Assembly: GCA_000165345.1 (NCBI GenBank)
Contig: CM000434.1
Location: 1,268,858 to 1,332,857, forward strand
Length of the DNA: 64,000 bases
Reading direction: 5' to 3'
Within the stretch, counting starts at the first letter, position 1; every line of letters begins with the position of its first letter. Positions 59,701 through 64,000 of this stretch are shown here, one piece after another. The position numbers are program-made.

Positions 59701-62700
59701 GGCAAAGTAATTATTTTAAAAATGAATAGATTTTTTTTTTTTTTTTTTAGAAATATATTAATTTTTTTAACTTTGAAAAAACAAAAATTAATAGATTAAC
59801 CTTGATTAAGATAAAACCATGATTGGATTAAACAGATTATAAAATGCAAAAAATAAATATTAAAGAAAATATTGAATTTTATTCAATTTATTTTGACAAT
59901 AATCAAGAAATAATATATTAAAAAAATAAATAATTAGAAAAAAAAAATCATAAAAGCAAAATTGATAAAAAAATAACTTACAATAGAAAATTAATAACTA
60001 AAATTAATTTTTATTATTTTAATAAATTGTTTTATTATTTTTTTTTAACTAGAATGCAGGAGAAAAAACGAACTTTTATTCTTAATTTGCAATATTCTAA
60101 CAAATACAAAAATTATTAGATTTTTCTTCAACGATCATTATCAATTCCTATATTTTAAAGATCTTCAATTTATATAAAAGAAATGATTGAAATTTTTTTT
60201 TTTTAATAAATATTAAATTATTATTTTTATTAGTCTTTTTAAATAATTAAAGATGGATTGAAAAAAAAAAAAAAAAAATTATTAATAAATGTATAATTAA
60301 TAAATTTTGGATTACATTATGTATTTTCAATTCACTATATGTTTTTATATTTTTATGATTGAATAAAGAATCGGAAGAATTGAATTTAGTAAAATTTTGT
60401 GGAACATAGTTTGATAGATAATCAAGAGTAACTTTCTCTTTAGAATAAGGAGATTGAACAGCATGCAAGAATATATTAGAATTTTTATAAATATGTTTGA
60501 GCCAATGAAAAAATTTATGATATTTAAGTTTTTTTCACAAAATGGATAGTTTTATTTTTCTCATTAAAATTATTTGTTTGATCTTGAATTTTAGATGAAA
60601 AATAAAAAAATTTTTCAGTTACATCAATTTCTGGTTCATTGTGAGTATCAAGAATTGATTCTTTAGCAGTATTAAATGAAGTTTCCTTAATTTTTATTGA
60701 ATTAAAATAAAATAATTTATTCCAAAATTTAAGTATATTTTTAGCTAAAATTTAAACATTTTTTCTATTAGAAACAACATAAAGATAAATTCCAGATAAA
60801 TGGCTATTTTTTCCTTCTTCTTGTGTGTGAATAATATATCCAAGTTGTTTTTCCAAACTAATTTTTTTTTTTTTGTAAAATAAAGTTGAAATAATTGAAG
60901 TTAGAATTTTAGTTAAAATATAATTTTTAAAATGACTATATTCAGTTATTTGCATGAAAGCAGCACTGTCATAATTTTTTGATATTTTATAATAATAAAT
61001 CTTGGAACCTTTTTTAAGAGAGAATAAATCTAACATTTAAAAATTAAGAATTGAATTAGAGGATTTCGTTGAAAGTAAAGAATTTCTTAAATTTTTTTTT
61101 TTTTTTTTTGGGAATTCAATTGGTGATTTTGATTTTCTATTTTTCCAGTAAAAAATTGATAGAGAAAATAAAAGAAAGAAGTAGAATATTCAATCATTTT
61201 TTTGATTCATAAATAATAGATAAAAACAAATTATCATTTTCCAGTAAATAGGTTGATGTTGGTTTATGAATTAATTTTAAAGATTGTATTGGGTTTATAT
61301 TTCCATAAAAAAATTCCTTCAAATTGTAATTGGTCAAAAAGAATTTAGAAAAATGTATGAACTCATTAAAATCAATAATTTCCAGTCTAGATTATTGCTT
61401 TTCTAATGTAAATTATTGATTTAGAATAATTTTATTGTGCATAAATAAAATTTTATTACCAACTTCTGAATTAATTTGTTTTTATTTTTTTTTTTCAAGA
61501 TGTATTTTAAGATTTTCTTTTTCTGATATAAAATCGGTTTCAGTGATATAAATTAAAAAATTTGATATAAATACTTATAAATTGGGAATAATTAGCTCAA
61601 TTTTATCAGTAAAACCATATAATTGAAATATTAATTGATTTCTTATGTTAGGATTATAAAAAAATTTTACAATATCAATTGAGGTATGATAAAGTGCGAA
61701 TTCAATTTTATAAAAATGTTTTTAAAATAGTTTGTCAAATAAGGATGAGAATAATTCAAAAAGCAAATAGATTCCAACAGTGTCTAATGGGAAATTTGAA
61801 AATTTGCTATTAATTATATTGATGGGGAAAATGAATCTAAATTGAATACTTGATTTAAGATCATTGCCATCTTTAGAGGGATAATAATAGAAATTGTTAT
61901 ATTTCAAAATTTCTTGCTGAGTAAAATTGGGAATATTATCGTTATTACGAGCTTTATATTTTTTTTATGGTTTCTGAGAGTTTAATAGGAACTTCTTCTT
62001 TATCAATATTATCACAATTATTAGAAAAATCATTAGGTATGTAGGGATTAGGTTTAGGGTTTAGGTTTAGGGGTTTAGGTTTTAGGTTTAGGGTTTAGGT
62101 TTAGGTTTAGGTTTAGGTTTAGGTTTAGGGGTTTAGGTTTAGGTTTAGGTTTAGGTTTTTAGGTTTAGGTTTAGGTTTTAGGTTTAGGTTTAGGTTTAGG
62201 TTTTGGTTTAGGTTTAGGTTTAGGTTTAGGTTTAGGTTTTTAGGTTTAGGTTTTAGGTTTAGGTTTAGGTTTAGGTTTAGGTTTAGGTTTAGGGGTTAGG
62301 TTTTAGGGTTTTAGGTTTTAGGTTAGGTTTAGGTTTAGGTTTAGGTTTAGGTTTAGGTTTAGGTTTTAGGTTTAGGTTTTAGGTTTTTAGGTTTTAGGTT
62401 TAGGTTTAGGTTTAGGTTTAGGTTTAGGTTTTAGGTTTAGGTTTAGGTTTAGGTTTAGGTTTAGGTTTAGGTTTAGGTTTCAGGTTTTAGGTTTAGGTTT
62501 AGGTTTAGGTTTAGGTTTAGGGTTTAGGTTTAGGTTTACGGTTTAGGTTTAGGTTTAGGTTTTAGGTTTAGGTTTAGGTTTAGGTTTAGGTTTTAGGGTT
62601 TAGGTTTAGGTTTTTAGGTTTAGGTTTTACGGGTTTAGGTTTAGGTTTTAGGTCTAGGTTTAGGTTTAGGTTTAGGGTTTTAGGTTTAGGTTTTAGGTTT

Positions 62701-64000
62701 AGGTTTAGGTTTAGGTTCAGGTTTACGGGTTTAGGTTTCGGTTTTAGGGTTTAGGTTTTTAGGTTTTCGGTTTAGGTTTTAGGTTTTAGGTTTAGGGTTT
62801 TAGGTTTAGGTTTAGGTTTAGGTTTCGGTTTCGGTTTAGCGTTTAGGTTTCGGTTTTAGGTTTAGGTTTCGGTTTTCGGTTTAGGGTTTTAGGGTTTAGG
62901 TTTAGGGTTTTAGGTTTAGGTTTAGGTTTAGGTTTCGGTTTAGGTTCCAGGGGCTTTAGGGGCTTTAGGGTTTAGGTTTAGGCTTAGGTTTAGCGGGTTT
63001 AGGCTTAGGTTTAGTCTAGGTTTTAGGGTTTAGGTTTTAGGTTTAGGGTTCAGGCTTCGGTTCTAGGGTTTAGGTTTCAGGTTTCAGGGTCTAGGTTTAG
63101 CCTTAGGTTTAGGTTTAGGTTTAGGTTTAGGGGTTTAGGTTTAGGCTTAGGTTTCAGGTCTAGCTTCAGCGTTTAGGTTTAGGTTCAGGCTTAGGGTTTA
63201 GGTTTAGGTTTTAGGGTTTAGGTTTAGGGGTTTAGGTCTTTAGGTTTTAGGCTCAGGTTTAGGTTTTAGGTTTAGGTTTAGGCTTCGGTTTTAGGTTTTT
63301 AGGTTTTAGGTTTCAGGTTTAGGTTTAGGTTTAGGTTTAGCCTTCGGCTTAGGTTCAGCTTTAGGTTTAGGTTCTCGGTTTAGGTTTTAGGTTTTAGGTC
63401 CTAGGTTTAGGGTTTAGGTTTACGCTTAGGTTTAGGGGTTTAGGTTTAGGTCTAGGTTTAGGTCTCCGCTTAGGTTTAGGTTTAGGTTTAGGTTTAGGTT
63501 TAGGTTTAGGTTTAGGGTTTAGGTTTAGGTTTCGGGGTTTAGGTTTAGGTTTAGGGGTTTAGGTTTAGGGTTTAGGTTAGGTTTAGGTTTAGGTTTAGGT
63601 TTAGGGGTTTTAGGTTTAGGGGTTTAGGTTTAGGTTTAGGGGTTGGTTTAGGGGGGTTTTAGGTTTAGGTTTAGGGGGTTTAGGTTTAGGTTTAGGTTTA
63701 GGTTTAGGGGGTTTAGGGTTTAGGTTTAGTTTAGGCTTCGCGTTTAGGTTTTAGGTTTAGGGGTTTAGGTTTAGGTTTAGGTTTAGGTTTAGGTTTAGGG
63801 TTTTAGGTTTTAGGTTTAGGTTTAGGTTTAGGTTTAGGTTTAGGGGTTTAGGTTTAGGTTTAGGTTTAGGTTTTAGGTTTAGGTTTAGGTTTTAGGTTTT
63901 AGGTTTAGGTTTTAGGTTTAGGGGGTTTAGGGGTTTAGGTTTTAGGGGGTTTTAGGGTTTTAGGTTTAGGGCTCCTAGGGGCGGTTTCTTTTGACATAAG

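What the first reader, a model, noticed from the sequence alone, without database searches (positions are those of the whole stretch)
62047..64000. A TTTAGG telomere whose distal part is more degenerate than its proximal part, and which ends in non-telomeric sequence
Normally the degenerate repeats lie at the subtelomere-proximal side and the pure repeats are distal. Here the cleanest hexamers are at 62.05-62.5 kb. Substitutions (C for T or G) accumulate toward 63.9 kb, and the array terminates in a unique 28-nt tail (GGGCTCCTAGGGGCGGTTTCTTTTGACATAAG). Three explanations are possible: an interstitial telomeric block such as a fused end, long-read consensus errors at a low-coverage contig end, or adapter or vector sequence left unclipped.
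Basis: seen in the sequence. Interest (0 to 1): 0.5.

Follow-up and report, generated by a model that had tools for sequence, protein, structure and literature searches.

The report
Real telomere, noisy old Sanger assembly
This is the ordinary, already known TTTAGG telomere of a Cryptosporidium parvum chromosome end, and its "degenerate" stretch and odd 31-base tail are most likely unclipped poor-quality sequence in the 2004 Sanger reference assembly rather than biology.

Summary
The window is the last 64 kb of the 2004 Sanger C. parvum Iowa II "chromosome 6" record. It has a 100-N scaffold gap, scattered Ns, and proteins 100% identical to Iowa II.

Positions 62047-63969 hold about 300 TTTAGG-type units, with the G-strand running toward the record end. 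The subtelomere/telomere junction is identical in an Illumina contig and in three other assemblies whose arrays run to, or to within 418 bases of, the record end. So this is a real chromosome end.

The degeneracy is not distal. All 67 spurious C's lie between 62478 and 63742. They rise gradually and stop abruptly, and the last 230 bp have none. The C's sit at every unit position, in 32 variant types among 54 units, and form no blocks. About 1.5 kb of C. parvum telomere from four other assemblies contains no C.

Extra T's and G's in runs are uniform along the array and occur in every assembly. The first five variant units are conserved, so some run-length variation is real.

The other end of the same contig (33161-33820) carries about 20% errors against two identical long-read assemblies. 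Unclipped bad read ends therefore do occur in this record.

The 31-nt tail matches nothing tested and remains unidentified. Interest is low.

The parts
62047..63969 (+). TTTAGG-type telomere array of about 300 units, G-strand 5'->3' toward the record end. It caps the chr5 5'-end contig, which this scaffold carries reverse-complemented at the end of 'chr6'.
   Evidence: The repeat equals the published C. parvum telomere unit (Liu 1998, as cited in PMC8848321; also PMC12179316).
62041..62086 (+). Subtelomere/telomere junction and the first variant units: GTAGG GATTAGG TTTAGGG TTTAGG TTTAGGGG TTTAGG TTTTAGG. These are real sequence, conserved between assemblies.
   Evidence: The Illumina-based Logan contig L015 is 100% identical to window 60417-62076. 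CpBGF chr6 3' (L016) has the same five variant units at the same offset from the junction.
62478..63742 (+). Noise zone. It holds all 67 spurious C's (47 substitutions, 20 insertions), rising gradually from left to right with a sharp drop near 63.55 kb. I interpret it as untrimmed low-quality Sanger read tail(s).
   Evidence: 54 C-units of 32 types, C at unit positions 1-5 plus insertions, adjacent identical C-units 1 against 0.52 expected; no C in 813 + 308 + about 370 + about 65 bp of other C. parvum telomeres.
63970..64000 (+). Terminal 31-nt non-telomeric tail of unidentified origin. The most likely sources are an unclipped read end, a cloning junction or a chimeric-clone remnant.
   Evidence: Unique in the window. 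No match. The only phage hit is at chance level, E=4. Local alignment to remembered vectors and adapters, and to the telomere repeat itself, does not exceed shuffles.
33061..33160 (.). 100-N scaffold gap. It joins true chr6 3' sequence (left) to the reverse-complemented chr5 5' end (right, 33161-64000).
   Evidence: Ns; the left side aligns to chr6 of four assemblies and stops at 33060; the right side aligns to chr5 records CP044418.1 and CP029784.1.
33161..33820 (+). Internal control: the other end of the telomere-bearing contig. It has about 20% miscalls over 660 bp, then none.
   Evidence: 141 differences to L002 and L003, which are identical to each other. 77% of the substitutions call G or C in AT-rich DNA.
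56234..59603 (-). Subtelomeric M16 insulinase-like protease (cgd6_5520 + cgd6_5510, copy 1). In this record it is split into 570-aa and 490-aa ORFs by spurious inserted N's at 57724, 57767, 57806 and 57884.
   Evidence: One search shows a single 1119-aa ORF in CP029784.1, with gaps opposite the window's N's. See also PMC6780254.

Best explanation
The array is a genuine Cryptosporidium parvum telomere. It consists of TTTAGG-type repeats, which by established knowledge are made by telomerase and cap the chromosome. The G-rich strand points to the end.

It sits at the junction shared by the 5' end of chromosome 5 and the 3' end of chromosome 6. In this record, the 2004 Sanger/HAPPY-map Iowa II 'chromosome 6', the 30.8-kb chr5-end contig was scaffolded in reverse behind a 100-N gap.

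One or a few untrimmed Sanger read tails cover about 62.5-63.7 kb. Their quality decays from left to right, and the basecaller fills in the one base whose channel is empty in this repeat: C, or G on the opposite strand. A better read covers the last few hundred bases.

The 31-nt tail is the unclipped end of the terminal read. It could be cloning-junction or vector sequence, read-start noise, or a chimeric insert.

Shown:
- The species, record type and misjoin.
- The real junction.
- The spatial and spectral pattern of the C's.
- Absence of C's in other telomeres.
- Gross errors at the other end of the same contig.

Inferred:
- The read layout.
- The empty-channel mechanism.
- The nature of the tail.

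The 1.9-kb length is also unreliable. Reads from any of the 16 telomeres can be chained by an assembler. Long-read assemblies show about 0.2-0.8 kb.
For: Provenance:
- The 570-aa and 490-aa ORFs are 100% identical to Iowa II proteins on a 1,332,857-bp contig.
- The window has a 100-N gap and 11 single N's.
- The literature describes the 2004 assembly as Sanger plus HAPPY map, with 10 gaps and 18,558 N's (PMC8744675, PMC12179316).
- Guo 2015 (PMC4407392) already places the cgd6_5460-5520 scaffold at the chr5 5' end.

The telomere is real:
- The junction is identical in Illumina contig L015 and in L016, L017 and L018.
- The right-hand contig is collinear at 99.66% with CP029784.1 chr5.

The noise is noise:
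- The C's are confined to 62478-63742, with a gradual rise and an abrupt stop.
- About 67 changes go to C. Only 17 substitutions go to other bases, and 14 of those lie in the G-run-rich 63447-63969, where they may be alignment slips. G->A never occurs, which mutation would be expected to produce.
- There are 32 variant types in 54 units, C at every unit position, and no blocks.
- About 1.5 kb of telomere from four other assemblies contains no C.
- Run-length indels are uniform and equal across technologies.

Control:
- Window 33161-33820 has about 20% errors and then zero, with miscalls biased to locally rare bases.
Against: - No raw traces, qualities or read layout are available, so low coverage and low quality at 62.5-63.7 kb are inferred, not seen.
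- A 1.1-kb gradual decay is long for one Sanger read and probably needs two or more tiled reads.
- The control region shows a flat 20% error rate rather than a gradient.
- The tail matches no vector or adapter tested, so 'unclipped vector' is unproven.
- One 38-nt string that includes a TTTCGG unit recurs 110 bp apart (62791 and 62901). That could hint at a template-borne variant, but it is within chance expectation.
Confidence: 0.85

Rival explanations
1. The C-containing units are real variant telomere repeats in the middle of the array. They could have been brought in, for example, by recombination or break-induced replication between chromosome ends, with pure repeats re-added distally by telomerase.
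For: - The distal 230 bp are C-free again, as expected if telomerase extended a recombined end.
- Chr5 5' and chr6 3' share a near-identical terminal 4 kb, so end-to-end exchange does happen in this species.
- Baptista 2022 (PMC8744675) speculates on recombinational telomere maintenance.
- One C-bearing 6-unit pattern recurs.
Against: - There are 32 variant types among 54 units, C at every unit position and also as insertions, and no blocks.
- The spectrum is almost exclusively 'to C' and lacks G->A entirely.
- Four other C. parvum telomere sequences contain no C, including 813 bp at this same chromosome in IOWA-ATCC.
- The gradient-then-stop profile fits read decay.
- The same contig has 20% errors at its other end.
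Confidence: 0.04
2. This is an interstitial telomeric block: a fused or healed end, or a telomere followed by further chromosomal DNA that starts with the tail.
For: The array is followed by 31 nt of non-telomeric sequence. The Iowa II scaffold is demonstrably mis-joined elsewhere in the window.
Against: - The same junction leads into telomere that runs to the record end in CM109966.1 and BX526834.1. In CP141123.1 it runs to the end of the fetched stretch, 418 bases short of the record end.
- There is no head-to-head CCTAAA array.
- The array ending 31 nt before the window end would be a 1-in-2000 coincidence unless the window end is the record end. The record length and gene coordinates fit a terminal window.
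- The decay spectrum is not mutational.
Confidence: 0.02
3. These are long-read (ONT or PacBio) consensus errors at a low-coverage contig end, with an untrimmed sequencing adapter as the tail.
For: Homopolymer-length variation (TTTT, GGGG) looks like long-read error. ONT-based C. parvum assemblies do exist (PMC8848321).
Against: - The window carries a 100-N gap and single N's, and reproduces the Iowa II-specific artificial split of the protease gene at 100% protein identity.
- That assembly is Sanger only (PMC8744675).
- Run-length variants occur equally in the 2003 Sanger sequence, PacBio and ONT hybrids and an Illumina contig.
- The tail does not resemble ONT, PacBio or Illumina adapters. 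These were written from memory.
Confidence: 0.02
4. For the tail only: it is a recognisable cloning vector, linker or polylinker left unclipped after the natural or sheared end of a telomere clone.
For: - It sits at the very end of a Sanger contig next to a few hundred bases of cleaner sequence, which is where a clone-end read would start.
- It contains a near-palindrome around CCTAGG (GCTCCTAGGGGC), the kind of sequence synthetic linkers have.
Against: - No hit in 72,556 plasmids at E<=10, in E. coli genomes or in phages beyond chance.
- No exact 23/24-mer in prokaryotic genomes or metagenomes.
- Not above shuffles against pUC19, pBluescript, pCR4-TOPO or pGEM-T polylinkers written from memory.
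Confidence: 0.25

Closest known systems
Cryptosporidium parvum / C. hominis telomere, (TTTAGG)n (Liu et al. 1998, as cited in PMC8848321; PMC4407392; PMC12179316)
   Same: Same repeat unit, same orientation, and the same subtelomere junction as in independent C. parvum assemblies. The array size is of the same order as the 260 copies reported on a C. hominis TU502 Sanger contig (PMC4407392).
   Different: This copy has a 1.3-kb zone peppered with C's and a 31-nt non-telomeric end, which no other C. parvum telomere I fetched shows. At 1.9 kb it is longer than the 0.2-0.8 kb seen in long-read assemblies.
Known defects of the 2004 C. parvum Iowa II reference: gaps, 18,558 N's, mis-scaffolded ends (PMC8744675, PMC12179316, PMC4407392, PMC6780254)
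   Same: The window shows the documented misplacement of the cgd6_5460-5520 scaffold (really the chr5 5' end), N's, and the artificially split cgd6_5520/5510 gene.
   Different: The papers I read do not describe the noisy telomere stretch, the tail, or the 660-bp bad contig end at 33161-33820.
Variant-repeat zones of telomeres in other eukaryotes (for example the proximal TTGGGG/TGAGGG variants in humans; from general knowledge)
   Same: Non-canonical units are interspersed with canonical ones.
   Different: True variant zones are proximal, made of a few recurrent types, often in blocks, and reproducible between sequencings. Here the zone is internal, the types are near-random, all changes go to one base, and other assemblies do not reproduce it.
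De novo telomere addition (chromosome healing) as described in Plasmodium falciparum (PMC5550746, title and abstract only)
   Same: This relates to the side observation only. In IOWA-ATCC the telomere is joined directly to unique sequence at ...GGTCATA|GGTTTAGGG, with 8.6 kb lost.
   Different: It does not apply to the window's own array, which starts at the conserved junction.

Membership tests
Telomere of Cryptosporidium (TTTAGG type) | Tandem array of the species' telomeric unit | tested here: met
   About 300 units, 154 of them exact TTTAGG. TRF score is 2101. The unit is as published (PMC8848321, PMC12179316).
Telomere of Cryptosporidium (TTTAGG type) | G-rich strand runs 5'->3' toward the molecule's end | tested here: met
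   All CCTAAA matches are on the minus strand, so TTTAGG is on + toward position 64000.
Telomere of Cryptosporidium (TTTAGG type) | Same subtelomere junction capped by telomere in independent assemblies | tested here: met
   L015 (Illumina), L016 (CpBGF), L017 and L018 (2003 Sanger) share GTAGGGATTAGGTTTAGG....
Telomere of Cryptosporidium (TTTAGG type) | The array is terminal, with nothing beyond it | tested here: inconclusive
   Here 31 nt of non-telomeric sequence follow the array. In L017 and L018 the array runs to the record end. In L016 it runs to the end of the fetched stretch, 418 bases short of the record end. That the window end is the record end is inferred.
Telomere of Cryptosporidium (TTTAGG type) | Physical end of the chromosome (Bal31 sensitivity, telomerase dependence) | not testable with these tools
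   Needs experiments.
Interstitial telomeric sequence / end-to-end fusion | Unique chromosomal DNA on both sides, or head-to-head (TTTAGG)n(CCTAAA)n | tested here: not met
   Only 31 nt follow the array. There is no inverted array. Other assemblies end in telomere at this junction.
Interstitial telomeric sequence / end-to-end fusion | Decay by ordinary mutation (all substitution classes, transitions prominent) | tested here: not met
   There are 67 changes to C and only 17 substitutions to other bases, most of them in G-run-rich stretches where they may be alignment slips. G->A is absent.
Unclipped vector or adapter | The tail matches a known vector, linker or adapter | tested here: not met
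   Searches are all negative or at chance level. UniVec itself was not available, and the vector sequences were written from memory.
Untrimmed low-quality Sanger read ends in a draft consensus | The record is a Sanger-era scaffold that demonstrably retains bad read ends at contig ends | tested here: met
   N gap and single N's. Window 33161-33820 has about 20% errors against two identical long-read records, then zero. Technology is from PMC8744675.
Untrimmed low-quality Sanger read ends in a draft consensus | The errors are unstructured, not reproduced in other sequencings, and follow a read-decay profile | tested here: met
Untrimmed low-quality Sanger read ends in a draft consensus | Low phred quality and 1-2x coverage at the affected bases | not testable with these tools
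   Traces and the assembly layout are not available here.

The most novel reading that the evidence does not exclude
The internal C-bearing zone would be a true block of scrambled variant repeats. It would have been captured from another end by recombination or break-induced replication and then re-extended with pure repeats by telomerase. That would be the first sequence-level trace of recombinational telomere maintenance in Cryptosporidium.
Probability: 0.03. Interest if true: 0.45.

Novelty: already known. Interest (0 to 1): 0.06.

Why it matters
It matters little for biology. The C. parvum telomere repeat has been known since 1998, and the weaknesses of the 2004 reference are documented.

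The practical value is a warning. The last 2 kb of this record, the 660 bp after the scaffold gap, and the N-containing stretch that splits the insulinase-like protease gene should not be used to infer telomere structure, telomere length or gene models. Long-read assemblies should be used instead.

The side observations on chromosome-end dynamics have more biological content than the flagged anomaly. They are:
- telomere healing at a start codon in the ATCC line;
- a near-identical terminal 4 kb shared by two chromosomes;
- intrinsically irregular T3-5AG2-5 repeats.

Tried and rejected
- Exact-protein look-ups for the two protease ORFs, their database twin P0001 and an 80-aa ORF found nothing. 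The Iowa II assembly itself is not in the gene-position index, so I could not read the source record or its other telomeres.
- I could not fetch the first 271 bases of CP029784.1, the true chr5 5' telomere. L023 stops 53 bases short of the junction.
- The two protein searches did not return the full-length 1119/1120-aa protease.
- Tail searches were all negative or at chance level: the window and 15 loci; plasmids, E. coli and phages with blastn at E<=10; an exact 23-mer in GTDB genomes; an exact 24-mer in JGI metagenomes.
- Smith-Waterman alignment of the tail against polylinkers and adapters written from memory was not above shuffles. The best was an old ONT adapter at p=0.04, which is irrelevant for a 2004 record.
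- By eye I noticed reversed-only or gapped resemblances to the pUC BamHI/SmaI/XbaI region. I rejected them as not significant.
- I looked for seams or staggered duplicate reads in the array through repeated variant-unit patterns. Only one 6-unit recurrence turned up, within chance.
- The 1999 genome-survey paper that might name the cloning vector is not held.
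Full report
**What is at the coordinates.**
Positions 62047-63969 are a tandem array of TTTAGG-type units. TRF reports period 6, 290.8 copies, 82% matches, 12% indels and score 2101. My parsing gives 300 units, 154 of them exact TTTAGG, 36 TTTTAGG and 26 TTTAGGG/TTTAGGGG. A 12-mer scan finds 163 hits against 0.88 expected, all with the G-rich strand on + pointing to the window end. The last 31 bases, 63970-64000, are not telomeric and are unique in the window.

**Where the window comes from.**
- The two ORFs nearest the array, 57891-59603(-) and 56234-57706(-), are 100% identical to "Cryptosporidium parvum Iowa II" insulinase-like peptidases on a contig of 1,332,857 bp.
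- The window contains a 100-N gap at 33061-33160 and 11 isolated N's.
- The 2004 Iowa II assembly was built from Sanger reads scaffolded with HAPPY-map data. It has 10 gaps and 18,558 N's (PMC8744675, PMC12179316).
- Left of the gap, the window matches the 3' region of chromosome 6 in four other assemblies at 99.8-99.995%. The match stops exactly at 33060.
- Right of the gap, it is the reverse complement of the 5' end of chromosome 5. It is 99.94% identical to IOWA-ATCC CP044418.1 over 10.9 kb and 99.66% identical to CP029784.1 over 20.7 kb in one alignment.
- Guo et al. 2015 already suspected this misplacement of the cgd6_5460-5520 scaffold (PMC4407392).
- A full 64-kb window fits at the end of a 1,332,857-bp record only if it is anchored at the end. 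The chr6 gene at window 23597 then falls at about 1,292,454, against 1,289,425 in CP029785.1. I therefore infer that position 64000 is the last base of the record, so there is nothing beyond the tail.

**The telomere is real.**
- An Illumina-derived Logan contig (L015, SRR5007564) is 100% identical to window 60417-62076. That span includes the junction and the first irregular units, GATTAGG TTTAGGG TTTAGG TTTAGGGG.
- The same junction occurs at the true 3' end of chromosome 6 in CpBGF CP141123.1, CM109966.1 and the 2003 Sanger sequence BX526834.1. In the last two, the array runs to the end of the record. In CP141123.1 it runs to the end of the fetched stretch, 418 bases short of the record end.
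- The interstitial or fused-end reading is therefore rejected.

**The "degeneracy".**
A wrap-around alignment to (TTTAGG)n separates two kinds of departure.

The first kind is extra or missing T's and G's in the runs.
- They occur at the same rate in the 813-bp IOWA-ATCC telomere (PacBio/Illumina), in CpBGF (ONT/Illumina), in CM109966.1 and in BX526834.1.
- The first five variant units are identical, at the same offset, in the window and in CpBGF. The Illumina contig covers the first three and matches them.
- So C. parvum telomeres are, at least in part, truly irregular: T3-5 A G2-5.

The second kind is the C's: 47 substitutions and 20 insertions.
- All of them lie between 62478 and 63742.
- Counts per 100 bp are 0, 0, 0, 0, 2, 1, 4, 4, 4, 8, 10, 8, 8, 9, 6, 0, 3, 0, 0, 0. 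That is a slow rise from left to right, an abrupt drop near 63.55 kb, and a C-free distal 230 bp.
- So the array is not more degenerate toward its end.

The C's look like noise.
- 54 affected units fall into 32 types.
- C replaces unit positions 1 to 5 and is also inserted.
- Identical variants are adjacent no more often than in shuffles: 1 observed against 0.52 expected.
- Substitutions to other bases are few (17). Fourteen of them lie in the G-run-rich 63447-63969, where they may be alignment slips. G->A, which ordinary mutation would be expected to produce, is absent.
- None of about 1.5 kb of telomere from the four other assemblies contains a single C.

**An internal control.**
The other end of the same contig, 33161-33820, differs at 141 positions (about 20%) from two long-read chr5 records that are identical to each other. 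From 33820 to 44000 there are no differences at all. About 77% of the wrong calls there are G or C in DNA that is about 80% A+T. So this record does keep untrimmed, very poor read sequence at contig ends, and miscalls favour the bases that are rare locally.

In a repeat with no C on one strand and no G on the other, the same behaviour would produce only C's on the + strand. The idea of noise amplified in an "empty channel" is my inference. So is the read layout: one or more outward reads decaying up to about 63.55 kb, with a better read covering the last few hundred bases.

The 1.9-kb length should also not be trusted, because an assembler can chain reads from any of the 16 telomeres. Long-read assemblies show 813 bp, 726 bp (from the coordinates), about 370 bp and about 220 bp (from the coordinates). 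A C. hominis Sanger contig had 260 copies (PMC4407392).

**The tail.**
It matches none of the following:
- the window or the fetched loci;
- 72,556 plasmids, E. coli genomes or phages at E<=10, the only hit being at E=4;
- prokaryotic genomes or JGI metagenomes as an exact 23/24-mer;
- polylinkers and adapters written from memory, or the telomere repeat itself, above shuffles.

Its origin is unresolved. Given its position at the very end of a Sanger contig, I think an unclipped read end is most likely. That could be a cloning junction, a linker, read-start noise or a chimeric insert.

**Comparison with what is known, and verdict.**
The repeat, its orientation and its junction meet the definition of the known Cryptosporidium telomere. 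The anomalies belong to the known class of defects of the 2004 reference. Nothing here needs new biology.
- Confidence that the C-zone is an artefact in a real telomere: about 0.85.
- Residual probability that it is a real variant block: about 0.03-0.04.
- Interest: low, 0.06.

**Side observations.**
- In IOWA-ATCC the chr5 end is 8.6 kb shorter. 813 bp of telomere are joined directly at ...GGTCATA|GGTTTAGGG, which is the start codon of the 294-aa gene. This looks like chromosome healing.
- The terminal 4 kb (58000-62046) is almost identical between chr5 5' and chr6 3', while 54894-57999 differs by 3-8%. This fits the two divergent cgd6_5520-5510 copies of PMC6780254.
- The N's at 57724-57884 are spurious insertions that split a single 1119-aa protease ORF.

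Noticed in passing
window 53448 (next to the ATG of the 294-aa gene at 52563-53447, minus strand); L001 1-814: In C. parvum IOWA-ATCC (CP044418.1) the chromosome 5 end is 8.6 kb shorter than here. 813 bp of telomere are joined directly to unique sequence at ...GGTCATA|GGTTTAGGG, at the gene's start codon, and the protease gene copy is lost. This looks like a terminal deletion healed by de novo telomere addition with 1-2 nt of microhomology. I found no mention of it in Baptista 2022.
   Followed up: partly
window 33061-33160 and flanks: The 100-N gap joins true chr6 3' sequence, which stops about 9 kb short of the real chr6 end, to the reverse-complemented chr5 5' end. This confirms the misplacement suspected by Guo 2015. 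The real chr6 end carries its own paralogues of the 294-aa gene (84% identity) and of the protease.
   Followed up: yes
window 33161-33820: A 660-bp stretch with about 20% base errors against two identical long-read assemblies, followed by zero errors. It is an untrimmed bad read at a contig end. Miscalls are mostly G or C in AT-rich DNA.
   Followed up: yes
window 57690-57892 (N's at 57724, 57767, 57806, 57884): The N's are spurious inserted bases. Together with a few nearby miscalls they split a single 1119-aa M16 insulinase-like protease ORF (intact in CP029784.1) into the annotated cgd6_5520 (570 aa) and cgd6_5510 (490 aa).
   Followed up: yes
window 54894-62046 vs L016 (CpBGF chr6 3' end): The terminal 4 kb (58000-62046) is nearly identical between the chr5 5' and chr6 3' ends, while 54894-57999 is 3-8% diverged. 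This suggests recent exchange (gene conversion or BIR) of the most distal subtelomere between two chromosomes. It is consistent with the 'divergent copies' paper, PMC6780254.
   Followed up: partly
window 62047-63969; L001 1-813; ends of L016, L017 and L018: C. parvum telomeres are intrinsically irregular. About 15-25% of units are T4-5 or G3-5 variants in every assembly and technology. The first five variant units are identical in the window and CpBGF, and the Illumina contig matches the three it covers. The usual description '(TTTAGG)n' is an idealisation.
   Followed up: partly
window 49815-50847 and 51033-52073: Two tandem paralogues, 88% identical, encode 229-aa and 234-aa proteins. From their position in Guo 2015 they are presumably the MEDLE genes cgd6_5480/5490.
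   Followed up: no
window 32001-62000 vs 1-32000: G+C drops from 28-37% on the chr6 side to 16-28% on the chr5 subtelomeric side of the gap. The gene-poor chr5 subtelomere is much more AT-rich than the chr6 core.
   Followed up: no
window 15241-15635, 17324-17500, 24057-24183: In-frame tandem repeats of 63, 33/66 and 33 bp lie inside large ORFs on the chr6 side. The copy number at 15241-15635 differs between assemblies: L007 aligns with offsets.
   Followed up: no
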